Of a DNA stretch of 64,000 nucleotides, positions 21,614 to 43,017 are shown piece after piece. The position numbers and the translations under genes are program-made. The DNA is taken from positions 687,588 to 751,587 of the forward strand of contig CAVOVE010000015.1 of NCBI GenBank assembly GCA_963699775.1, given 5' to 3'. The DNA comes from an uncultured Candidatus Rokubacteria bacterium (GTDB taxonomy: Bacteria; JAUVQV01; DATDCY01). Under the pieces are notes generated by a model that did not search any database, had not been told where the DNA came from, and was given only the letters and a program-made list of their open reading frames with translations. The stretch's first letter is position 1; each line of letters starts with the position of its first letter.

Positions 21614-23884
<2,271 letters not shown>

Positions 23885-30787: not shown

Positions 30788-30873
30788 TGGTGCGAAAGGG
30801 GGGAGTTGAACCCCCACCCCGTCTCCGGGACTGGATCCTAAGTCCAGCGCGTCTGCCAGTTCCGCCACTTTCG
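30788..30873 (-). tRNA. tRNA-Leu (anticodon TAG)
   Basis: reverse complement GCGAAAGTGGCGGAACTGGCAGACGCGCTGGACTTAGGATCCAG...long variable arm...CTTTCGCACCA; cloverleaf by eye. Confidence 0.8.
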
Positions 30874-30892
30874 CCCGGAGACTGAGAGAATA

Positions 30893-30968
<76 letters not shown>

Positions 30969-31005
30969 ACATCCACCATATCTATGTTCATACTACCACA
31001 CTATC

Positions 31006-31081
31006 TGGGGTGAGTGAAGGGATTTGAACCCTCAACCCCCTGAGCCACAGTCAGGTGCTCCACCATTGAGCTACACCCACC
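31006..31081 (-). tRNA. tRNA-His (anticodon GTG)
   Basis: reverse complement GGTGGGTGTAGCTCAATGGTGGAGCACCTGACTGTGGCTCAGGGGGTTGAGGGTTCAAATCCCTTCACTCACCCCA; extra 5' G typical of tRNA-His. Confidence 0.85.
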
Positions 31082-33818: not shown

Positions 33819-34706
33819 TCAACCGCAGTCCAGGATCGCGCGCAGGGCCGCGGCCCGGGCGGCGCTTTGCGCATCCCCCGTGACCAGTTCGATCTGCTCC
33901 GGTCCGGCGGCGCCGAGACCGAGTTCGACGGCGCGCGCGATCTGCCCCTGGCGGAAGATCGGTTTTCCCATGACCGCCCGGTTGCTGCCGATCTCCTTGA
34001 GGACCGCGAGGCCGACGGCGTCGACGGCGACGCGGTCGGTCCCCGCGAGGACGACGCCCGCGGGCTTCCGGGTCCCCGTCATCGGCCCGCCGTCGACAAA
34101 AGCCTCGAGGCCGTCGAGAACGACGAGGGCCGGCTGGTAGACGGTGTTGACCTCGGCGATCATCCTGCGCATCGAGAGCAGCGACGCGTGCAGCTCGCGC
34201 ATGTTGCGCCGGTGCACCATGCCGATGGAGTTCTTCAACGACATCGTGAAAACACCGCCATAACCGTGAGTCTTGAGGCAGCAGGTCGAAACCACGCACG
34301 GCGACTCGAGGACGGGGCGCGCGAAGTCGAAGCCGTTGAGCCAGGCGCTGCCCGGAGGCTGTTGGCGAACCCAGCCTTCCCGGGGGAGCGTCTCGAGGTC
34401 GAGGATCTCCGCGCCGAGCCGTGCGCAGAGTTGCGGGACTCCCTTGGCAGCCAGGACCGTCGCCATCTGCGCCGGGCCGCAACGGTCGGCGACGGTGACG
34501 CCGACGGCACCCAGCTCCTGCAGGGTCGTGATGAGCGACGCCAGGGTGTCGTTGTGCGTCGAGCCGGGGTAGGGATCAGCGGTGTTGAAATTGGGCTTGA
34601 TCAGCACCCGGACGCTGCGCGCTGCGCTGCAGCCGATGAGTTCGACGGCTGCGCGCACGCCGGCGGCGCGGTCAACGGTCTGGACGAGTGCGACTCGCGA
34701 AGACAT
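33819..34706 (-). CDS. DUF362-domain protein
   Basis: 295 aa; KPNFNTADPYPGSTHND region typical of DUF362; last gene of the peptide-modification operon. Confidence 0.65.
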   Translation of the reverse strand: MSSRVALVQTVDRAAGVRAAVELIGCSAARSVRVLIKPNFNTADPYPGSTHNDTLASLITTLQELGAVGVTVADRCGPAQMATVLAAKGVPQLCARLGAEILDLETLPREGWVRQQPPGSAWLNGFDFARPVLESPCVVSTCCLKTHGYGGVFTMSLKNSIGMVHRRNMRELHASLLSMRRMIAEVNTVYQPALVVLDGLEAFVDGGPMTGTRKPAGVVLAGTDRVAVDAVGLAVLKEIGSNRAVMGKPIFRQGQIARAVELGLGAAGPEQIELVTGDAQSAARAAALRAILDCG

Positions 34707-34728: not shown

Positions 34729-36483
34729 CTATACCACAGGCGTGTCTTCCCGACGATCGTTCGAGGCGCGGGAACCGCCGGCCACGCCGAGGACCCGCGC
34801 GACCATGTGGACGGGGTGGATGAGGTAGAGCAGCGGCACCAGGGCCCCGTGCCGCACGCGCCAGTAGCGCCGCAGGCGCACGGGCGCGGGGAAGAGCGTG
34901 CGCCCGAGACCCGTCAGGCGCGCCGGGCGGAAGAAGAGGCGGGGACTCATCTTCATCAGCCGGGCGAAAAAACGCCCTGTCCCCGGGGCGGCGCTCCGGA
35001 GCGGGAAACCGGCTCGCACCGGCGCCGCGGGCGGCACGCCGCAGCGATCGCAGGCCGCCTCGGCCACCGGACCGGGGTGCAGCAGACGCAGGAGGCCCAG
35101 GGCTTCGGCGATCTCCTCCCCGACGTTCCAGGCGGCGGCCCGCTCGCGCAGCAGCCCCGCGTCCAGCTCGGCGTCATGCAGGGCGAAGTGACGCTGCAGG
35201 TCCGTGAACCAGAGCAGGCGGTTGCCGACGCAGGGACGGAGGAACCAGGCGGCGGGGAGCCCGGCGCGCAGCCCGGCGCGGTTGAGTATGCCGTGCCGGG
35301 CGGCGTGCACCGCGAGGTAGAGGAACTCGTCGACCGGGGCGGGAACGGGGATCGCCAGCGCGCCGGCCATCCTCTCGCCTCGGCGCGCGAGCAGCTCTTC
35401 GGCCGGGATCCGGGCAAGGCAGGCCCGGTCGGTGAGGCCCCAGTGCAGTTCGATCGGGACGCGGCCCTTGCGCGCGCGGTGCGAGCGTGACGTGGAAGTG
35501 CACGCGGTCGAGGAGCCGCGCCGAAATGCCGACCGGGGCGCTGTAGCCGGCGGCGAGGAGCGCCCGACGCGCGCGCGCGTCCGGTCCGCCGGCGCCACGA
35601 GCAGGTCGAGGTCGGAGCTGGAAGCGCTCGGCGCCCGAGGCGTAGAGGTGCACGAGGGCCGGCCCCTTGAGCACGAGGTGCGGCACCCCTGCCGCGATCG
35701 AGGGCGGCAGCGGCCTCGCGAAAGGTCTCGAGCGCATCCAGGTGCGCCAGGCCGGCGCGCAGGGTGTGCCGGCGCAGCTCCCCGGCGATCCCCGCCGGCA
35801 GGGCGGCCCCCGACCAGCGCAGTACGGCGGGGACGACCCCGTGGGTCACGGCCCCCTGCAGCAGGAGCGATCCCGTCGAGGTCGGATCCCGCAATGGGCG
35901 TCGCGGGATCAAGGTCTCTGCGGCAGCAGGCGAGAAGGAACTCGCGCTCGGCCGCGGCGGACTCGTCGTCGAGGGAGAAGACGGGATACGCGGCGGCGAG
36001 CAGCGGCAGTGCGAGGGCCTTGAACGGCCGCAGCAGCCGCCGGCGGCGGCCGCGGCAGACCCGCGGATCCTGCCGCCCGAGACCAGCCCCGCGCGGAGTG
36101 CGTCGGCGAGGTCGGCCTCGACAGCGGGACGCCCGCGTCAGCAGACGCACCGCGAACCGCGAGGCGGGCGGGTCGAGACGGCGCAGCGCGCCGCGGCAGC
36201 CGACCCAGACCGCGCGCCCCTGCACGTCACGGGCGTCGATCCAGCTCGAGACCGCGTTGCCGTCGCCCTTCTCGCGCAGGAGCAGGGTCTCGCCGTCGCG
36301 CCTGAGTTCGAGCACGCGGTGGACCAGCGTGCGCTCCCCGTCGCGAAAGGCCACGATGTCGCCGGGGGAGACCGACCCGCTTTCGCACGGCGCGAGGCCG
36401 ACCTCGGCGCCGTCGCGGATGAGCGGGTACATGCTGCGCCCCGAGGCCCGCACGATGCGCGCCGCCGCAGCGGAGCCGCTCAC
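34729..36483 (-). CDS. S24/S26 (LexA/signal-peptidase-like) peptidase domain fused or adjacent to PF14907-type nucleotidyltransferase-family domain; central part frame-shifted
   Basis: N-terminus ARIVRASGRSMYPLIRDGAEV...GDIVAFRDGERTLVHRVLEL (S24 fold with SM nucleophile); nucleotidyltransferase-family segments GVPHLVLKGPALVHLYASGAERFQ, VHFHVTL, IELHWGL..FLYLAVHAARHG spread over three minus frames. Confidence 0.6.
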   Translation of the reverse strand: MSGSAAAARIVRASGRSMYPLIRDGAEVGLAPCESGSVSPGDIVAFRDGERTLVHRVLELRRDGETLLLREKGDGNAVSSWIDARDVQGRAVWVGCRGALRRLDPPASRFAVRLLTRASRCRGRPRRRTPRGAGLGRQDPRVCRGRRRRLLRPFKALALPLLAAAYPVFSLDDESAAAEREFLLACCRRDLDPATPIAGSDLDGIAPAAGGRDPRGRPRRTALVGGRPAGGDRRGAAPAHPARRPGAPGCARDLSRGRCRPRSRQGCRTSCSRGRPSCTSTPRAPSASSSDLDLLVAPADRTRARVGRSSPPATAPRSAFRRGSSTACTSTSRSHRARKGRVPIELHWGLTDRACLARIPAEELLARRGERMAGALAIPVPAPVDEFLYLAVHAARHGILNRAGLRAGLPAAWFLRPCVGNRLLWFTDLQRHFALHDAELDAGLLRERAAAWNVGEEIAEALGLLRLLHPGPVAEAACDRCGVPPAAPVRAGFPLRSAAPGTGRFFARLMKMSPRLFFRPARLTGLGRTLFPAPVRLRRYWRVRHGALVPLLYLIHPVHMVARVLGVAGGSRASNDRREDTPVV

Positions 36484-39069
36484 GCCAACCCCTCGATGAG
36501 CCGGAGCATCGACTCGAGCCTCCCGGGCGTGAGCTTGTAGAACACGGTGCTCCGCAGCAGCCGCGCCAGGTCCTGGAGAAGCGGCGTCATGCGGCCGCCG
36601 AACTCGCCGGCGATCAGCTCGCTGACCTGGTGCGGGATGATCTTCTTGGAGAACTCCAGGACACCCGCCGCGGCCGGGATCCGCAGCAGTGCCGGCTCCG
36701 CGTCGAAATCCGGATCATCGAGGCCCTCGAGGCGCACGCCGGCGAGGGCGACCCCGTGCTCCCCGACCAGGCGCACGAGGGCCGGCATACCCGTCCCGGG
36801 GTCCGCCATCTCGACGACGACCAGCGTCAGACCGTCCTCCTCCGACCGGGCGTGGACACGCAGGCCGGGAAGCGCGTCGAGCGCCGCGCCGAGCGGATCG
36901 GTCCAGTCGGTGAGGGCCAGCCGCACCTTCCCCTCGTGCTTCGCGAGGGTCAACACCGAGGGCTGCGCGCGCGGCGTGAGAAAGAGCACGACGTCCGGAC
37001 GCACCGGCGCGGCGGGCGGCCGACCGGTGAGTTCGCGCACGTCGACGAGTTTCTTGGCAGTCGCTGCGGAATATCTGGTCCGTTGTCTCCCGGCCGACCA
37101 GGAGAGGTTCGCCCACCCCCGGACGGATGCCGACGGGAAAGGACGCGGGCAGGACGAGTCCGCTCGCGCGCTCCAGCGGGGCGAGCTCGTCCGAGAGCAG
37201 CCCGGCGCCCCGGACGGCGAGGTGCGCCGTGAGCGTGGATTTGCCCATCCGGGAGGGCGCCGCGATCACGACGCCGCGACCCCCGAGGCTCACGCAACCG
37301 GCGTGCGCGAGGTAGGCGGTCCTGACACGCGCCTCGGCGAGATGGACGAGGGTGAGATGCGCCCAGGCGACAAGCTCCTCGCCGCGCAGGCGCCAGGCGC
37401 GCTCCCCGGCCACGAATGTCGCGCGCGGCTCCCGCCCCTCCTCGATCAGTGCGGCGATCTCGACGTCGGGCGGCCGCCCCGGATCGAGGGGGACCTCGAA
37501 GATGCCCAACTCGCGGCGGGCGCCTGCGATCGGAGCGGTCGTGTTCGCACTCAGCCGGACGCGGGTGCCGAAGAGGTCGAATTCGATGGCGTGCCGGGCC
37601 GCGGCGGACACGGCCCCGCGCTCCTCCGGCGCGAGCACGGTTTCCTCGAGGTAGGGAGACGCCACTGCGCCCTCAGGCCGCGCGCCGTGAAAAGAAGCGG
37701 CGGAGAGAAGATAGGGAAGGAATCCCGAGCGCAGCAGCGCGGTGTAATCGCGCGGCCGCGCGTGACGGAGGACGTCCGCCAGGTAGGCCGGAAAGACCCG
37801 GCGGCGGTAGAGGGCGCGCTCCGCCCGCAGCAGCTCGGCGTCGCTCATCTCGGAGAGGTTGGGCGTCGAACCGGCGGCGGGGCCCCCTCCTGCCGCGGGT
37901 GGTTGCCAGAATCGCGGAGCGAGACGTCCCGCGGCGACGAGATCGCGGACGAGGGGGGTCCCGGGCATCGGGATATAGCGAATGAGCCTGACGATCGTCG
38001 GACGCGTGCGGGCGAGGAACCCGTCGGTGAGGCGCGCGTCCCCGGCGGTCTCGCCGGGGGTGCCGATCATCACGGAGGCAAGGGTCCGTATCCCGGCGCG
38101 GCGCGCCAGCCGCAGCGCGGTCTCGTGCGTCGCGAGCGTCTCACCTTTGCCGAGGCGCTCCAAGAGGCGCGGCGAGCCGCTCTCGATCCCGAATTCGAGC
38201 TGGACGCAGCCCGCCCGGCGCATCAGCGCGAGGATCCCCGCGTCGACGGAGTCGGTGCGCACCTGGGCCGCCCAGACGATGCGGCCGGCCAGGCCGCTGC
38301 GAACGAACTCGTCGCAGAGCGCGGCGACGCGGTCGCGGTTCCCGAGGAAGGTCTCGTCCTGGAAGTAGATCCCCTCGACGCCGTGCGCCGCGACGAGCCG
38401 CTCGACGTCCGCGACCACGCGGGCGGCGGAGTGCCAGCGGTGCGGCGCCGGGTAGAGTCGGCCCTCGGCGCAGAAGCGGCAGACGCCCGGGCAGCCGCGC
38501 GAGGAGAGGACCGTCGCGGTGCGCAGCGGCAGGCAGGGTATCGCGCGCAGCGTGCGGCCGGTGTGGTAGCCCATCTCGAGCAGGTCCCAGGCGGGCGGCG
38601 GGATCCGGTCGAGATCCGCAAGCGGCGGCCGGGGTCGAGCGCGGCTGACGGCGCCGCCCGTCCGGGCCGCCGTCCCGGGCACTCCCGCGAGCGGTGCGCC
38701 GGCGGCTATCTCGAGGAGGGTCTCCTCGGGTTCGCCGATCACGATGCCGTCGAGGAACGGGTGCGCCGCAAGGGTCTCTTCGGGAACCAGTGTCGGATGC
38801 CGGCCGCCGGCCAGCAGGAGCGCCGACGGCGCCGCCTCGCGGGCGAGCGCGCCGCAGCGAGCGAAGTCGGCGAGACGCTCGAGCGGCACGTCGAAGAGGA
38901 CGACCCCGGGGGAGAGTTTCCCGATCGCAGCCCGGAAGAGATCGGCGGCACCCTCCGGTGCGGCGGCGGGGGCCGCGATGCGGTCGAACTCCAGAAGGGA
39001 CACCTCGTGCCCGCCCCCCCGGAGGGCGGCGGCGGCGAGGGGCAGATACACCGGCGTCCAGAGCGGCAT
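36480..39069 (-). CDS. B12-binding radical SAM domain protein (N-terminal approx. 460 aa) continuous with an HprK-related P-loop kinase-like C-terminal domain; frame change near 36720-37040
   Basis: B12-binding LAAAALRGGGHEVSLLEF..LLLAGGRHPTLVPEE; radical SAM SSRGCPGVCRFCAEG, YFQDETF; then VVIAAPSRMGKSTLTAHLAVRGAGLLSDELAPLER (HprK C-domain-like P-loop), continued in ORF 36480..37040; no stop between the domains in the assembled frame. Confidence 0.6.
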
Positions 39070-39150: not shown

Positions 39151-39447
39151 TCAAGACTGTTTTTCGCCTGCAGGCACCGCCGGACCGAGGAGCCCCTTCG
39201 CGGCCATCGCCCGGAGGCTCTCCCGAATCATCGCTGCCGGATCGGCGTGAGCGGCCAGGTCGTACCGCTCGCGCAGCCGCTGCTCGATTTCCGGTACGTC
39301 CAGACCGGCCTTGAGGCCCTCCCAGATAGCGGCGGAAGCCTCGTTCAGAACGTGGACCTGATCGGTCTCGGCGTCGAAGACCATGATCTCCTCGCCCAGA
39401 CGTTCCTCTCGCAGGTGCGGCCGGGGGCGGTACGTCTCCGTCACGGT
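39151..39447 (-). CDS. PqqD-family protein (RiPP recognition element / peptide chaperone)
   Basis: 97 aa; LGEEIMVFDAETDQVHVLNEASAAIWEGL matches the PqqD beta-strands/helix pattern; GTG start. Confidence 0.7.
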   Translation of the reverse strand, partial: TVTETYRPRPHLREERLGEEIMVFDAETDQVHVLNEASAAIWEGLKAGLDVPEIEQRLRERYDLAAHADPAAMIRESLRAMAAKGLLGPAVPAGEKQS

Positions 39448-39562
39448 TCCTCGCTAATCGAGCGACGCTCGGAATGCCGGTAAAGACCTGCTGGGTTTCG
39501 AACTCCTCGCGTTTGAAGGTTTCAATCGCCGGGACCGGCAGGGGCTGCTTCGGGTCGCGCAT
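39448..39562 (-). CDS. candidate precursor peptide ORF (MRDPKQPLPVPAIETFKREEFETQQVFTGIPSVAR...), 3' end undefined because it runs into pqqD in +1 frame
   Basis: ATG at approx. 39562 preceded by GAGGAGAG Shine-Dalgarno at -7; alternative upstream ATG at 39613 (MLDRKAKESATLTRRAK-); positioned immediately 5' of the PqqD gene, as is usual for RiPP precursors. Confidence 0.3.
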
Positions 39563-39638
39563 CTTCGCTCTCCTCGTCAAGGTTGCGGACTCTTTCGCCT
39601 TGCGATCTAACATAAATGATCCTCGCCGGGCAAGTCAA

Positions 39639-40985
39639 CTAGTCCGGGAACGGGGCGTTGTCGACCGCGGGACGGGGAAATTTCGTCTCCCGGCCGGTGC
39701 CGAGCACTTTCCAGAGCGGATAGTGCTCATAGCGGCCGAGGAGGGCCTCGATGTCGAGGTCACGCTCCGCAAAGCTGTAGAACACGATGCAAAGCGGGGA
39801 CCGCCACCCGCCACCGCGTACACCCTCGAGGAGCTCGCCGACCGTGGCGCCATCGTCCGGGGCGACCCGCCCGGCTTCGATGGCCGACGCGAGCAACTCC
39901 ACAAACCGCCCTGGAGCCCGTCCGCGCAGAAACCGCTGCGCCGGTGCCCGGACCCAGATACGCTCGCACAGCGGCGCGACGGCGCGCGAGATCTCCCGGT
40001 AGTACTCGTCGCGCCGTCCGCCGCAGGCGGTGAGGATTCCTACGGTGGCGTCGCACCCGAGCGAGTGTGCCAGGCGCTCGAAGAGCGGTATCTCCAGACG
40101 GTAGCTCGCGGGGTTCTTGCACTCGCTCAGCAGCACGTGGATACCGGCGCCGCGCAGCAGGGTGTTGCGGCAGACGTTGTCCCGCGGTTCCAGACCGAAC
40201 TCGCGCAGGGCGGCGAGGGCGGCGCTTGTGTCGAGCCGGACCCGCCTCCCCAGCGCCTCGTGCGCGGCCAAGGCAGCCATCGCGTTCGCGGTGTTGTGCG
40301 CCTGGAAGCCCCCGAGCGTGATCGGGATCTCGCCGACAGCGATCACGGGCCGCGCGCCTTCGGGGCCTTTCTTCCAGATCGTCCCCCCTTCGAGGTACCA
40401 GCAGCGGGGGTGCTCGCCCTGACGGCCTTCAACGGTGAAGAAGACCGTCTCCACGCCGCGCGGGCGCGGCATCGCGCGCACGAGCGGGTCGTCGGCGTTC
40501 AGGACTACCGTCCCGCCGCGGCGCACCCGGCGGGGGATGGCCGCCTTGACGCGGGCCATAGCCTCCACAGTTTCGATCCCGCGGTCGCCAAGGTGGTCGG
40601 GAAGGACGCTCGTCACCACGCCGACGTCGATGCGGCTGAAGCCCGGTCCGTACTCGAGCAGGCCCCCGCGAGCCGTCTCCAGCACAAGCGCCTGTACCCC
40701 TGGACACTGCGCTGCCCGCCAGGCGCCTCCCGGCCCGGCCTCGTCCCGGCGGTTGACATAGTGCCCGGCGTGGGCCACCCCATCGGTGGTGCAGGCCCCG
40801 ACGCGGAGCCCGGAGGCTCCCAACATCCGGGCGAGGAGCTTCACAACGGTGGACTTGCCATTGGTTCCCGTGACGGCGGCGATGGGGACCCGCAGCGCAG
40901 CGAGGCGCGGCCGCACGAGGAGGCGGACCGCCGTACGATAGGCGGCAATCCTCAGGTGGTAGTGCCGGTCGACGAATCCCTTGAG
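39639..40985 (-). CDS. Mur-ligase-family protein (CphA C-terminal / CapB / MurD-like amide ligase)
   Basis: VPIAAVTGTNGKSTVVKLLARML (Mur ligase P-loop), VLETARGGLLEYG, DVGVVTSVLPDHL middle-domain motifs; approx. 449 aa; GTG start overlapping upstream rSAM gene. Confidence 0.7.
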   Translation of the reverse strand, partial: LKGFVDRHYHLRIAAYRTAVRLLVRPRLAALRVPIAAVTGTNGKSTVVKLLARMLGASGLRVGACTTDGVAHAGHYVNRRDEAGPGGAWRAAQCPGVQALVLETARGGLLEYGPGFSRIDVGVVTSVLPDHLGDRGIETVEAMARVKAAIPRRVRRGGTVVLNADDPLVRAMPRPRGVETVFFTVEGRQGEHPRCWYLEGGTIWKKGPEGARPVIAVGEIPITLGGFQAHNTANAMAALAAHEALGRRVRLDTSAALAALREFGLEPRDNVCRNTLLRGAGIHVLLSECKNPASYRLEIPLFERLAHSLGCDATVGILTACGGRRDEYYREISRAVAPLCERIWVRAPAQRFLRGRAPGRFVELLASAIEAGRVAPDDGATVGELLEGVRGGGWRSPLCIVFYSFAERDLDIEALLGRYEHYPLWKVLGTGRETKFPRPAVDNAPFPD

Positions 40986-42000
40986 ACCCACCGCTGACCT
41001 CCCCTCTGGCCGGCGAACAGTGCGCGAGACGGCTCGAAGCACGAACAGCCCCGACAGAACCTCGGGACACACCTGCCGCGGGACCAGAGCGCCCGTCGTA
41101 TCTCCCGCGCTTTCGCGCCGCCCCAGGCGAGCGCGAAACCCTTGTTGTCCGCAGCCCCGAGCACCATGCGGCCTCCCCAGTCCTGGCAGCAGAGGAGCAC
41201 TCTTCCGTCGCGAAGAACCGCTGCGCACTGGAATGGCGCACTGCACGCCGGCAGCGCGCGACCGAAGGCGAGCCTCAGCCTCCGTCGCCACGGCCGACGC
41301 AACTCCGCTGCTGCGAACTCGCTGTAGCGAACGAGCTCTCCGGCCCGGTTTCTCAAGGGCAGGACCAGCGCCTCGACGCCGCGCTCCGTCCAGTGGCGGA
41401 GGAACTCGGACGCTTCCCCGGCATTGGCACGCTGGCGAACGAACCGGACGCGGACTTCGAGCCCGCGCTTCCGCGCCGCCGCGACCCCGGCGACGGCCCG
41501 ATCGAAATCGAGCCCCGGACGCACCACCCGATAGGTCTCCGGCCTGAGCGCATCGAGGCTGACCTCGATGAAATCGAGTCCGCCTGCGGCCAGCTCCCCC
41601 GCGCGAGCCTCGTCGAGCAGCGAACCGATGGTGACGACGCCGATCCGGCAGCGGGGTCCGAGGGCGACCCGGGCCTCGCGCACGCGCAGTCCGAGCTCCG
41701 GGTCGAGGAGCGGTTCGTTCTGGAGCATGAGCACGAGGATCCGCACGCTGCCGGCGTCGGCGAGTTCACCGATGATGCTGCGGTACAGCCCGGCCGCCAT
41801 CGTCCCGCCGTCGCGGCCGCAACCGTGAGCAACCGGGCAGGTCGGGCATCGGCCGTTGCACCCGCCCACGGTCTGAATCTGGACGACGCGAGGGCCGGGG
41901 AAAGCAGCCTCAGCGCCAGCGAGCAAGGCGAGCCCGCGGCGTGCGAGATCGGCACCCAGGAGGGCGTCTGCCGCGATCGCGCGGGCGCGCCGGGTCAGGC
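40952..42000 (-). CDS. radical SAM protein with SPASM/twitch-type C-terminal Cys cluster
   Basis: CNGRCPTCP (CxxxCxxC), GEPLL-like NEPLLDPEL, C-terminal CSAPFQC...LCCQDW...CRGC; start codon uncertain. Confidence 0.75.
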
Positions 42001-42090
42001 GCCCCACCCGGATCCGCCAGGCACGATCGCCTTCCCGCTGCGCTCCACGCTCAGCGCCGATTTCGCTCCCGGTTCCATCCTGGCGGCTGT

Positions 42091-43017
42091 TCACGGGACA
42101 ATCCTGAACGGGGCGTTGCCCCGGATGTTGCCCTCGCTGGCTGCCGCCACCGGGCCGGCGGGGTCGAGCGCGCATTCATACGGGTGAGCGAAAGATGTTG
42201 TCGGCAGACCGCTTTCACCCGCGCTGCTCAACCCCAGGTCCCGGTACTGCGCGAGGAGCGAGGTGATCGGCATGCCAGGGTCCTGGGAGAAGAAGGACAG
42301 ATGTGACACGACGAGGGGATTGAAGATCCGGTTCACCCGCCCGAGCCGCTGCGGGATGGTGACGCTGAGCGCCTCCTCGTCGTCACCGCGCACGCCGTTG
42401 AAGTGCTCCAGGTCCCGCCCGAGGTAGCTGACGAAGTTGATGCTCAACCGGTCGGGTGCGATCGTTGTCCCCGGCCGAGCGAACGCGGCGGGTGCCGCGA
42501 GAAAGTGCCGGTGCAGGCGGGTTGCGAGCACTGCGCTCTCCCAGAGGATGCCGCAGAACCCCCTCGGCGGATACGGGAGGACCATCAGCGAGCTGGGCAC
42601 CGTCCCCTGCAACTGTTGATTGAACGCGCAGACCCCGTTGTTCACGACGTTTGCCGAGAGGAGGAAGGTGTCGGTGTCGGTACGACGATGCGCGATGAAC
42701 ACCGGGAGCCGCTCGAGATCGACGAACACGATGTCGTCGTCGGCCTTGATGAACAGGGTGTCCCCGTACGACGATTCCCGGTAATGCTCGTAGTAGTCGT
42801 CGTAGCACGGCCCGGTCGGTCGGTACAGGCGAATGCCCGGGTGCAGTCGGGGCAGTGTCGAGATCCAGTTCCGGTCCGACTCGTTTCGAGCGTAGTCCCA
42901 GATGTGATACTCGGAGACGACCCTCCGCTGCAGCGCCGTCGCCGCGTAGCCGACAAGGATCGACATTCGGTCGCGGCGGCCGGCAAACGTGGTCATGATG
43001 ACACGCGATGGCCCCAT
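42091..43017 (-). CDS. hypothetical protein with DXD-type motif (FIKADDDIVFVDL), possible GT-A-fold glycosyltransferase
   Basis: 308 aa ORF; composition protein-like; weak resemblance to capsule-synthesis GT families. Confidence 0.4.
   Translation of the reverse strand: MGPSRVIMTTFAGRRDRMSILVGYAATALQRRVVSEYHIWDYARNESDRNWISTLPRLHPGIRLYRPTGPCYDDYYEHYRESSYGDTLFIKADDDIVFVDLERLPVFIAHRRTDTDTFLLSANVVNNGVCAFNQQLQGTVPSSLMVLPYPPRGFCGILWESAVLATRLHRHFLAAPAAFARPGTTIAPDRLSINFVSYLGRDLEHFNGVRGDDEEALSVTIPQRLGRVNRIFNPLVVSHLSFFSQDPGMPITSLLAQYRDLGLSSAGESGLPTTSFAHPYECALDPAGPVAAASEGNIRGNAPFRIVP

What the first reader, a model, noticed from the sequence alone, without database searches (positions are those of the whole stretch)
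39448..39613. Candidate precursor peptide directly upstream of the PqqD gene with a strong Shine-Dalgarno sequence
Reverse strand 39613->: ATG TTA GAT CGC AAG GCG AAA GAG TCC GCA ACC TTG ACG AGG AGA GCG AAG ATG CGC GAC CCG... gives (MLDRKAKESATLTRRAK)MRDPKQPLPVPAIETFKREEFETQQVFTGIPSVAR... The internal ATG is preceded by GAGGAGAG at -7. Ser/Thr-containing (IETF, TQQ, TGIPS) and moderately charged, it resembles leader or core peptides more than high-GC antisense junk (no Arg/Pro/Gly runs until it enters pqqD). In the assembled frame it lacks a stop and overlaps pqqD. A 1-nt indel near 39455-39470 would terminate it (alternative frames end ...SVARLD* or ...SISEEP*).
Basis: seen in the sequence. 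Interest (0 to 1): 0.6.

Follow-up and report, generated by a model that had tools for sequence, protein, structure and literature searches.

The report
Real precursor peptide gene, broken frame
The small reading frame upstream of the PqqD gene is a genuine, conserved 35-residue precursor peptide of a rare, uncharacterised peptide-modification gene cluster, and its missing stop codon comes from one extra base that is most likely an assembly error.

Summary
On the minus strand an ATG at 39562 follows GAGGAGAG, and the frame has no stop for 490 codons. Intact 34-36 codon homologues lie between the same neighbours in five other assemblies (L002, L006, L007, L008, L009). All end ...PS-x-x-Asp-stop. 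The window differs by one extra base (c39462 or g39463: GTCG[C]TCGATTAG). Removing it gives MRDPKQPLPVPAIETFKREEFETQQVFTGIPSVVD*. The assembly has many frameshifts: ppk1 lies in four frames, clpX in three, and the cluster's own kinase gene in two. The extra base is therefore most likely an assembly error.

A profile of the peptides finds 53 cluster representatives among 1.84 billion proteins. They share a conserved N-terminal part (ELPxPxVVTFRREELxxPVVFTG) and a variable 5-14 residue tail that usually contains Pro-Ser. No Pfam or NCBIfam model and no paper found covers them. Most sampled loci carry PqqD, a B12 radical SAM enzyme, an HPr-kinase-like protein and a peptidase/nucleotidyltransferase fusion. 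Asp-ending members always follow a ligase resembling the cyanophycin synthetase M domain.

I read it as a precursor of a ribosomally made, post-translationally modified peptide (RiPP). No known class-defining enzyme is present. The chemistry is inferred.

The parts
39609..39638 (-). Promoter-like site: -35 TTGACT (39638-39633), 18-nt spacer, -10 TATGTT (39614-39609).
   Evidence: 1 site found against 0.1 expected in shuffles. The -35 hexamer and much of the spacer are invariant in L002 and L006 and near-identical in L007. Function is not shown.
39568..39575 (-). Shine-Dalgarno sequence GAGGAGAG of the peptide gene.
   Evidence: Read directly from the sequence. Conserved as AAGGAGAG or GAAGGAGG at the same distance from the start in L002, L006, L007 and L009.
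39454..39562 (-). Precursor peptide gene. ATG at 39562. Codons 1-33 are in frame to 39464. One spurious base (c39462 or g39463) follows, then GAT (39459-39457) and TAG (39456-39454). The repaired product is MRDPKQPLPVPAIETFKREEFETQQVFTGIPSVVD, 35 aa.
   Evidence: The family was defined.
39462..39463 (-). Site of the single extra base that takes the stop codon out of frame (window GTCGCTCGATTAG; relatives GTCG-TCGATTAG, GCCA-TCGATTAA, GTCA-TCGATTAG).
39151..39444 (-). PqqD-family protein, 97 aa, GTG start, own GAGGA ribosome-binding site. Presumed leader-binding RRE.
   Evidence: Pfam PqqD 33.7 bits against cut-off 23.4. TIGR04353 'HPr-rel-A system PqqD family peptide chaperone' 33.5 bits against cut-off 35. 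81-84% identical to the L002 and L007 orthologues.
39639..40991 (-). Stand-alone Mur-ligase-like enzyme resembling the M domain of cyanophycin synthetase.
   Evidence: TIGR02068 positions 474-815, E 2e-71. PDB 7lg5 residues 481-820, E 2e-39, against MurF at 8e-9. The P-loop TGTNGKST and the catalytic Asp-His (LPDHLG) are kept.
40952..42175 (-). Radical SAM/SPASM protein. The true start is probably near 42007.
   Evidence: Pfam Radical_SAM plus SPASM. 82-85% identical to the 351-aa orthologues in L002 and L007.
37666..39069 (-). B12-binding radical SAM enzyme. It appears fused to the next gene in the assembly; relatives are separate proteins of 463-483 aa.
   Evidence: Pfam B12-binding plus Radical_SAM. 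Homologues. tblastn and indel map.
36480..37665 (-). HPr-kinase-like protein, 394 aa in relatives. Split by a frameshift at about 37060.
   Evidence: tblastn of the L002 and L007 orthologues: residues 1-202 in one frame and 172-392 in another. Weak TIGR04352 and Hpr_kinase_C matches.
34729..36483 (-). Fusion of an S24/S26-type peptidase (GRSMYP...HRV motifs) with an NTP_transf_5 nucleotidyltransferase.
   Evidence: Pfam Peptidase_S24 and NTP_transf_5; TIGR02228 signal peptidase I.
33819..34706 (-). DUF362 protein, a conserved cluster member.
   Evidence: Pfam DUF362, E 8e-42. 88% identical to the L007 orthologue. Also present in L003 and L005.

Best explanation
39562-39454 (minus strand) is a real precursor-peptide gene. 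Its 35-residue product is MRDPKQPLPVPAIETFKREEFETQQVFTGIPSV(V)D. The public assembly carries one spurious base at 39462/39463 that removes the TAG stop from frame. The peptide belongs to a rare, unannotated family.

Proposed pathway (every step is inferred):
- The conserved N-terminal ~28 residues (…LPxPxVETF.RxE…VFT) act as a leader bound by the adjacent PqqD-type protein.
- The last 6-7 residues (G-I-P-S-V-V-D) are the part that gets modified.
- The HPr-kinase-like enzyme phosphorylates the conserved Ser.
- The NTP_transf_5 domain decorates that phosphate.
- The B12 radical SAM enzyme C-methylates the core, and the SPASM radical SAM enzyme makes a further radical modification.
- The cyanophycin-synthetase-M-like ligase activates a carboxylate of the C-terminal Asp with ATP and joins an amino acid or amine to it.
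- The S24/S26 peptidase domain removes the leader.

What is shown here: the gene, its conservation, the leader/core pattern, the gene neighbourhood, the Asp-ligase co-occurrence, and the high frameshift load of the assembly.
For: Gene and family:
- Intact homologues with the same RBS, start and length sit between the same genes in L002, L007, L008 and L009. L006 also has one, next to the ligase only.
- The profile search found 14 peptides among 5.8 billion proteins and 53 representatives among 1.84 billion.
- The only match in the window is 39562-39461.
- Third-codon positions carry half of the substitutions, and pN/pS is 0.4-0.6.
- The coding signal ends exactly at the indel.

Indel as an assembly artefact:
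- Five independent assemblies keep Asp-stop in frame.
- Pfam domains continue across frame switches in ppk1 (4 frames) and clpX (3 frames).
- There are about 28 stop-less same-strand frame switches in 64 kb.
- The cluster has two further frame anomalies relative to L002 and L007.

Leader/core split:
- Conservation drops after FTG.
- In multi-unit relatives a Peptidase_S74-like motif begins where single-unit peptides stop.

RRE: the PqqD Pfam hit is above threshold.

Ligase and terminal Asp:
- Every Asp-ending member examined follows a Mur_ligase_M gene. This includes the distant P0054, where nothing else of the cluster is nearby.
- The five non-Asp peptides in L003 and L004 have no such ligase.
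- The ligase is closest to the CphA1 M domain and keeps its catalytic Asp-His. [quoted passage not shown]

Kinase and nucleotidyltransferase precedent: lasso-peptide PadeK/ThcoK and PsmN act on precursor Ser (PMC9266682).
Against: - As assembled, the gene has no stop.
- No read data or second assembly of the same strain was available. The repaired peptide is not in the 15-billion-protein collection, so a true frameshift cannot be excluded.
- No modified product, binding or enzyme activity has been shown for any family member.
- The PqqD and kinase proteins score below the curated cut-offs of the HPr-rel-A models.
- The Asp-ligase association rests on a few lineages, several of them closely related.
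- No transporter or immunity gene was identified in the cluster.
Confidence: 0.8

Rival explanations
1. The extra base is real. The precursor gene in this strain is a frameshifted pseudogene, either because the cluster is decaying or because another paralogue, such as P0048 elsewhere on the same 1.46-Mb contig, supplies the substrate.
For: - The cluster shows two further frame anomalies: the rSAM-kinase 'fusion' and the kinase frameshift at about 37060.
- The spacer between the peptide and pqqD is 12 nt here against about 98 nt in L002 and L007, so this spot has really been rearranged.
- A second family member exists in the genome.
Against: - Housekeeping genes ppk1 and clpX carry three and two frameshifts of the same kind.
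- About 28 frame switches occur across the 64 kb. Three in this 9-kb cluster is therefore the background rate of the assembly, not cluster-specific decay.
- Outside the single base, the gene, its RBS and its promoter-like site are fully conserved.
Confidence: 0.13
2. The peptide is not the final product. It serves as a scaffold (pearlin-like logic). The ligase adds an amino acid to the C-terminal Asp, the other enzymes elaborate that residue, and a small molecule is released while the peptide is recycled.
For: - There is a tight two-gene 'ligase + Asp-ending peptide' module, even without the other enzymes (L006, L010, L011).
- The variable part is very short.
- The ligase's nearest characterised relative acts on a terminal Asp.
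Against: - The C-terminal tails vary widely in length and sequence across the family. Most do not end in Asp and have no ligase. This pattern fits a core peptide better than a constant scaffold.
- No tRNA-dependent or release enzyme typical of such pathways was seen.
Confidence: 0.05
3. It is a chance open frame in a 70% G+C intergenic region, or a conserved non-coding or regulatory element rather than a translated gene.
For: - Off-frame ORFs are long and common in this window.
- The frame as assembled runs 490 codons through two real genes.
Against: - Amino-acid conservation holds across relatives that differ widely at the DNA level.
- Intact ORFs of 32-43 codons occur in many assemblies.
- A conserved RBS and ATG are present.
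- Codon-position bias of substitutions and profile E-values down to 1e-17 to 1e-20 support coding.
- The L002 spacer RNA shows no unusual folding, z = -0.14.
Confidence: 0.02

Closest known systems
Lasso-peptide tailoring set: B1 (PqqD-like RRE) plus HPr-kinase-like PadeK/ThcoK/PsmK plus nucleotidyltransferase PsmN
   Same: The same three protein families are encoded beside a small precursor gene: a PqqD-type RRE, an HPr-kinase-like protein and PF14907 NTP_transf_5. In lasso systems the kinase phosphorylates a Ser of the linear precursor, and PsmN decorates the phosphate (PMC9266682). The window's PqqD also weakly matches the lasso PqqD model.
   Different: - The window cluster has no lasso cyclase and no B2 protease.
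- The Asn-synthase gene in L003 passes the true AsnB model, not the lasso cyclase model.
- The variable tail is only 6-7 residues, too short for a ring plus threaded tail.
- The conserved Ser is internal (Pro-Ser), not C-terminal.
- Thr is at -1 relative to Gly, not at -2.
HPr-rel-A system (NCBIfam TIGR04352 HprK-related kinase A, TIGR04353 PqqD family peptide chaperone)
   Same: These are the best NCBIfam hits for both the PqqD protein and the kinase-like protein. The pairing of a kinase-like protein with a small PqqD 'peptide chaperone' is the same.
   Different: Both score below the curated cut-offs: PqqD 33.5 against 35, and the kinase 44-53 against 200 even for intact orthologues. To my knowledge that system has no described precursor or product. 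No NCBIfam model matches the peptides.
Cyanophycin synthetase CphA1, M domain
   Same: It is the closest solved and curated relative of the adjacent ligase. The ATP-binding P-loop and catalytic Asp-His are conserved. The M domain acts on the side-chain carboxylate of a C-terminal Asp (PMC9262961), and all ligase-associated peptides end in Asp.
   Different: The ligase here is a stand-alone ~450-residue protein without the N and ATP-grasp G domains. The presumed substrate is a ribosomal peptide, not poly-Asp. Neither the substrate nor the amine partner has been tested.
SynChlorMet (Scm) cassette: ScmC (HPr-kinase-like), ScmD (PqqD-like), ScmE/F (radical SAM/SPASM)
   Same: The combination of protein families is similar. 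There are weak hits to ScmD (E 4.5e-4) and ScmE (E 2.6e-11), and faint ScmC Pfam hits on the kinase-like orthologues.
   Different: All scores are far below cut-offs. B12 radical SAM, the Mur-like ligase and the S24/nucleotidyltransferase fusion are not, as far as I recall, part of that cassette, and I did not test this.
B12-dependent radical SAM RiPP methyltransferases (for example the ApyD model NF050148)
   Same: It is the best NCBIfam hit of the B12 radical SAM enzyme (E 6e-39) and is a RiPP-tailoring enzyme class.
   Different: The score is 134 against a cut-off of 750 and is about equal to the BchE hit. This is generic superfamily similarity only.

Membership tests
RRE-dependent RiPP precursor peptide (generic) | Small ORF with its own start and RBS, adjacent to an RRE/PqqD-type protein and tailoring enzymes | tested here: met
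   ATG 39562 with GAGGAGAG. pqqD starts 12 nt after the repaired stop. Two radical SAM enzymes, a kinase-like protein, a ligase and a peptidase are in the same operon-like array.
RRE-dependent RiPP precursor peptide (generic) | Conserved leader and hypervariable core across homologues | tested here: met
   The alignments show invariant or near-invariant P, T, R, E, L, P, V, T positions up to ...FT(G), then variable tails of 5-14 residues.
RRE-dependent RiPP precursor peptide (generic) | Intact reading frame ending in a stop codon | tested here: not met
   As assembled the frame runs 490 codons. It is intact in five relatives and restored here by removing one base. The assembly carries many frameshifts.
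RRE-dependent RiPP precursor peptide (generic) | Leader binding by the RRE and a detectable modified product | not testable with these tools
   This needs binding assays and mass spectrometry.
Lasso peptide precursor | Asn-synthetase-like lasso cyclase in the cluster | tested here: not met
   No Asn_synthase hit among the window cluster genes. The L003 Asn-synthase scores 193 against cut-off 525 on the lasso cyclase model but passes the AsnB model, 419 against 267.
Lasso peptide precursor | B2 transglutaminase-like leader protease | tested here: not met
   No such domain appears in the window cluster or in L002-L008. An S24/S26 peptidase domain is present instead.
Lasso peptide precursor | Core with Gly/Ala/Ser/Cys at position 1, Asp/Glu at positions 7-9, and a C-terminal tail to thread; Thr at -2 of the leader | tested here: not met
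   G29...D35 would give a Gly1-Asp7 ring but leaves no tail. Most family members have no acidic residue in the tail. Thr is at -1 relative to Gly.
HPr-rel-A system (TIGR04352/TIGR04353) | PqqD protein reaching the TIGR04353 cut-off (35 bits) | tested here: not met
   33.5 bits for the window protein, 24.8 for L003, and no hit for L007.
HPr-rel-A system (TIGR04352/TIGR04353) | Kinase reaching the TIGR04352 cut-off (200 bits) | tested here: not met
   44-53 bits, matching only the P-loop region, even for the intact 393-394 aa orthologues.
Cyanophycin-synthetase-M-type ligase (the neighbour, as partner of the peptide) | Mur-ligase fold with ATP P-loop and catalytic Asp-His | tested here: met
   Pfam Mur_ligase_M. 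TGTNGKST and LPDHLG align to SuCphA1 residues 491-498 and D585/H586.
Cyanophycin-synthetase-M-type ligase (the neighbour, as partner of the peptide) | Acts on the carboxylate of a C-terminal Asp and adds Arg or another amine | not testable with these tools
   The only evidence is co-occurrence. Every Asp-ending peptide examined follows such a ligase: window, L002, L006, L007/L008, L009, L010/L011.
Cyanophycin synthetase (TIGR02068, full enzyme) | N domain plus ATP-grasp G domain plus M domain, score at least 850 | tested here: not met
   241 bits, covering model positions 474-815 only.

The most novel reading that the evidence does not exclude
This is the founding example of a new class of ribosomal peptide natural products. 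A stand-alone ligase of the cyanophycin-synthetase M-domain type adds an amino acid, without tRNA, to the C-terminal Asp of a ribosomal peptide. The very short core (G-x-P-S-x-x-D) is also Ser-phosphorylated and decorated, and radical-SAM-methylated. Multi-unit relatives release their cores through built-in Peptidase_S74-like self-cleaving spacers.
Probability: 0.3. Interest if true: 0.8.

Novelty: new variant of a known kind. Interest (0 to 1): 0.6.

Why it matters
It adds a precursor family that no annotation library recognises. That family anchors an enzyme set not known to act together on a ribosomal peptide:

- a PqqD-type RRE
- a B12 radical SAM enzyme
- a SPASM radical SAM enzyme
- an HPr-kinase-like protein
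- an S24/nucleotidyltransferase fusion
- a cyanophycin-synthetase-like ligase

The strict pairing of Asp-terminated peptides with that ligase gives a directly testable hypothesis for a new peptide-tailoring reaction. It also gives the long-catalogued but unexplained family of 'HPr-kinase-related / PqqD' systems a candidate substrate.

There is a practical lesson too. Small genes in error-prone long-read assemblies are lost to single-base indels, so this cluster would be reported as lacking a precursor.

Tried and rejected
- **Genome scan.** The genome-contig scan with the B12 rSAM/kinase protein gave one irrelevant Clostridiales hit.
- **Exact look-ups.** The window's PqqD protein (with V or M start) and the 784-aa 'fusion' protein are not on record. 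I could not retrieve the source record or reads.
- **Repaired peptide.** Exact look-up of five possible repaired peptides (…SVVD, SVAD, SVLD, SVARLD, SVAID) found none in the collection. There is no independent confirmation of the corrected sequence.
- **Source names.** Cluster-member look-up gave no accession or organism name.
- **Family libraries.** Pfam and NCBIfam scans of the peptides gave no hits even at E = 10.
- **Second copy.** I searched for another family member in the window and found none. The second peptide of L007 is absent here, because other genes lie between the 77-aa gene and the tRNA cluster.
- **Spacer RNA.** The 98-nt peptide-pqqD spacer of L002 folds no better than shuffles (z = -0.14). 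I dropped the attenuator idea.
- **Upstream start.** I rejected ATG 39613 as the start because it lies inside the promoter-like -10 hexamer and is not conserved as a start in L002.
- **Lasso reading.** I rejected it for lack of a cyclase, a B2 protease and a tail.
- **Taxonomy.** Trigger factor gave only unnamed metagenomic relatives, 'MAG TPA: bacterium' at 78% and named phyla at 37% or less.
- **Literature.** Searches for HPr kinase, PF14907, TIGR04352, Mur ligase or Peptidase_S74 together with RiPP found nothing on this family.
- **First frame plot.** The simple GC3 frame plot was too noisy. I replaced it with codon log-odds segments.

Full report
**1. Observation**

- ATG at 39613.
- A second ATG at 39562, preceded by GAGGAGAG (39575-39568).
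- Translation MRDPKQPLPVPAIETFKREEFETQQVFTGIPSVARLARNRDGD....
- The frame has no stop until 38141. It is a 490-codon ORF that overlaps pqqD and the next gene out of frame.
- The other two frames stop at TAG 39456-39454 (…SLD*) and at a TGA overlapping the pqqD GTG (…SISEEP*).

A codon log-odds score trained on the window's long genes places a coding segment at 39565-39464 and nowhere further in that frame.

**2. Neighbourhood**

The minus-strand genes were identified by Pfam and NCBIfam, by the closest solved structures for the ligase, and by synteny with L007 for the first and last entries:

| Coordinates | Gene |
|---|---|
| 43017-42091 | 308-aa protein with no family hit; C-terminal 40 residues match the 300-aa 'faint CARDB' gene at the same position in L007 |
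| 42175-40952 | radical SAM/SPASM enzyme |
| 40991-39639 | Mur-ligase-like protein; best relatives are the M domain of cyanophycin synthetase |
| 39562-39454 | the candidate peptide |
| 39444-39151 | PqqD-family protein |
| 39069-~37666 | B12-binding radical SAM enzyme |
| 37665-36480 | HPr-kinase-like protein |
| 36483-34729 | S24/S26-peptidase plus NTP_transf_5 fusion |
| 34706-33819 | DUF362 |
| 33782-33552 | conserved 77-aa protein |

**3. Relatives**

Homologues of the B12 radical SAM enzyme led to loci with the same gene order. L002 is 85% identical at the protein level. It carries a called 35-codon gene between the ligase and PqqD: MHEPKQPLPVPTVETFGRGELETLQVFTGQPSVVD*.

More distant loci have one to three such genes beside PqqD, the B12 rSAM enzyme, the kinase-like protein and the nucleotidyltransferase fusion (L003, L004).

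A profile of seven peptides found 14 small proteins among 5.8 billion. They include:
- P0040 (MRDPKQPLPTPAIETFKREEFETPQVFTGRPSAID), 91% identical to the window peptide;
- P0048, a paralogue on the same 1.46-Mb contig but outside the window.

An exhaustive HMMER search with 14 peptides found 53 representatives among 1.84 billion proteins. Further loci (L007, L008, L009) repeat the ligase-peptide-PqqD order.

None of the peptides matches a Pfam or NCBIfam model. Literature searches found no description of the family.

**4. The missing stop**

The six sequences read as follows at the end of the gene:

| Locus | Sequence | Reading |
|---|---|---|
| L002, L007, L008 | AGCGTCG-TCGATTAG | SVVD* |
| L006 | AGCGCCA-TCGATTAA | SAID* |
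| L009 | TCGGTCA-TCGATTAG | SVID* |
| window | AGCGTCGCTCGATTAG | frame lost |

The window has one base more, c39462 or g39463. Deleting c39462 gives a 35-codon gene ending SVVD-TAG.

Is the base an error or a mutation? The window's assembly has many frameshifts.
- ppk1 (21713-23881) is split over four frames, with Pfam domains continuing exactly across each junction.
- clpX is split over three frames.
- The cluster's kinase gene is split at about 37060. The B12 rSAM gene has lost its stop through nearby indels, giving an apparent 784-aa fusion that no relative has.
- A scan finds about 28 same-strand frame switches without a stop in 64 kb.

Three frame problems in this 9-kb cluster therefore match the background rate. 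I rate an assembly artefact at about 0.85 and a true pseudogene at about 0.13. No read data or second assembly of the strain could be reached.

**5. Start and expression signals**

A sigma-70-like site lies just upstream: TTGACT-18-TATGTT, 39638-39609 (1 found against 0.1 expected). Its -35 box is invariant in L002 and L006 and is present in L007. The start is therefore ATG 39562, with a conserved Shine-Dalgarno sequence 7 nt upstream.

The window's spacer between the peptide stop and the pqqD GTG is 12 nt. It is about 98 nt in L002 and L007 and 31 nt in L009. The long spacer shows no special RNA fold.

**6. Anatomy of the family**

- The N-terminal ~28 residues are conserved: consensus M..K.ELPxPxVVT[FY]RREELxxPVVFT.
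- The residue after the conserved Thr is Gly in 50 of 71 units.
- A Ser, usually as Pro-Ser, lies within five residues in 63 of 71 units.
- The remaining tail of 3-12 residues is variable.
- Eleven relatives are multi-unit proteins with 2-7 units. Each unit is followed by SDRNLKxNF...L..L, which matches the start of Pfam Peptidase_S74, the self-cleaving chaperone domain of endosialidases (P0055 at 41.5 bits, P0049 E 2e-7). That motif starts where single-unit peptides stop, which supports the leader/core division.

**7. Mechanism (inferred)**

- The PqqD protein passes the Pfam threshold, so it is a plausible leader-binding RRE.
- The kinase-like and NTP_transf_5 proteins are homologous to lasso-peptide tailoring enzymes that phosphorylate a precursor Ser and decorate the phosphate (PMC9266682). 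The conserved Ser is the obvious target.
- The S24/S26 domain keeps the Ser (GRSMYP) and HRV motifs (read). It is the only protease candidate.
- The strongest new inference concerns the ligase.
  - It is far closer to the cyanophycin synthetase M domain (E 2e-39) than to MurF (8e-9).
  - It keeps the P-loop and the catalytic Asp-His.
  - That domain phosphorylates the side-chain carboxylate of a C-terminal Asp and adds Arg (PMC9262961).
  - All peptides next to such a ligase end in Asp: window, L002, L006, L007/L008, L009.
- I used this as a prediction. The distant member P0054 (…FTGQPSRPD) also lies directly after a Mur_ligase_M gene, in a locus with none of the other cluster genes (L010, L011).
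- Peptides that do not end in Asp (L003, L004) lack the ligase. They have instead a true AsnB-type amidotransferase, another carboxylate-activating enzyme.

**8. Comparison with known systems**

- It works most like RRE-dependent RiPP pathways and shares three protein families with phosphorylated lasso peptides.
- It is not a lasso system: there is no cyclase, no B2 protease and no tail.
- It is related to, but below the cut-offs of, the uncharacterised HPr-rel-A system and the SynChlorMet cassette.
- The B12 rSAM similarity to ApyD is generic.

**9. Verdict**

- The feature is a real precursor gene broken by one base, most likely an assembly error.
- It belongs to a rare, unannotated peptide family with an unusual enzyme set.
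- I class it as a new variant of a known kind and score interest at 0.6.
- The source organism could not be placed. Its trigger factor has only unnamed metagenomic relatives above 50% identity.

Noticed in passing
window 21713-23881 (+) and 28837-27582 (-); about 28 junctions across 1-64000: The assembly carries many frameshifts. ppk1 is split over four frames and clpX over three, with Pfam domains continuing across the junctions. About one stop-less same-strand frame switch occurs per 2-3 kb. Several junctions lie at or near ...TCGC.../...CTCGA... sequences, which might reflect a systematic base-calling error at a methylated motif.
   Followed up: partly
window 39069-36480 (-): The 784-aa 'B12 radical SAM-HPr kinase fusion' recorded in public databases (P0001) is an artefact of indels. 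Relatives have separate genes of 465 and 394 aa. In the window the conserved rSAM stop (GGCCTGAGGG) is out of frame, and the kinase gene changes frame at about 37060.
   Followed up: yes
P0049, P0050, P0051, P0052, P0055, P0069, P0090 (not in the window): These are multi-unit relatives of the peptide with 2-7 repeats. Each repeat has the leader-like motif, a short variable stretch and an SDRNLKxNF... spacer that matches the start of Pfam Peptidase_S74 (self-cleaving endosialidase chaperone). They may be self-processing multi-core precursors.
   Followed up: partly
L006:241-1776; L010:8614-10105; L011:1148-2639: A two-gene module, Mur-ligase-like gene plus Asp-ending peptide, occurs on its own without PqqD, rSAM or kinase genes nearby. 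In L006 it is followed directly by a tRNA gene.
   Followed up: partly
same 1,458,753-bp source contig, outside the window (P0048): A second family member, METKRTFELPTVTTFRREELDLPVVFTGIPSRMPV, is encoded elsewhere in the same genome. Its neighbourhood could not be retrieved because no DNA was returned.
   Followed up: partly
L007:10558-10659, compared with window 33549-31141: L007 has a second precursor (MGKKQLPEPSITSIRREELELPFVFTGGTSVIN) between the 77-aa gene and a tRNA. It ends in Asn where the first precursor ends in Asp. In the window this position is occupied by about 2.4 kb of other genes (Band_7/SPFH and neighbours) and the second precursor is absent.
   Followed up: partly
window 39445-39453, compared with L002:3828-3925: The spacer between the peptide stop and the pqqD start is 12 nt in the window, about 98 nt in L002 and L007, and 31 nt in L009. 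The long spacer has no significant predicted RNA structure.
   Followed up: yes
L003:2145-4022 (-) and L004:121-1986 (-): Clusters whose peptides do not end in Asp carry a divergently transcribed Asn-synthase-type gene. For the L003 gene, the only one scanned, the glutamine-hydrolysing Asn synthase model is passed and the lasso cyclase model is not. L003 also has a formyltransferase between two precursor genes.
   Followed up: partly
window 30791-31080 (-), 30754-27582 (-): Three tRNA genes are followed by trigger factor, clpP and clpX. The trigger factor has only unnamed metagenomic relatives above 50% identity, so the organism belongs to a poorly sampled lineage. The G+C content of the window is 70%.
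   Followed up: partly
window 21713-23881 (+) and 20670-19450 (-): ppk1 and a PPK2-family polyphosphate kinase gene lie about 1 kb apart on opposite strands (divergently oriented). The PPK2 ORF has no stop for 290 codons beyond its coding signal and abuts an outer-membrane efflux protein gene, which is probably another indel.
   Followed up: no
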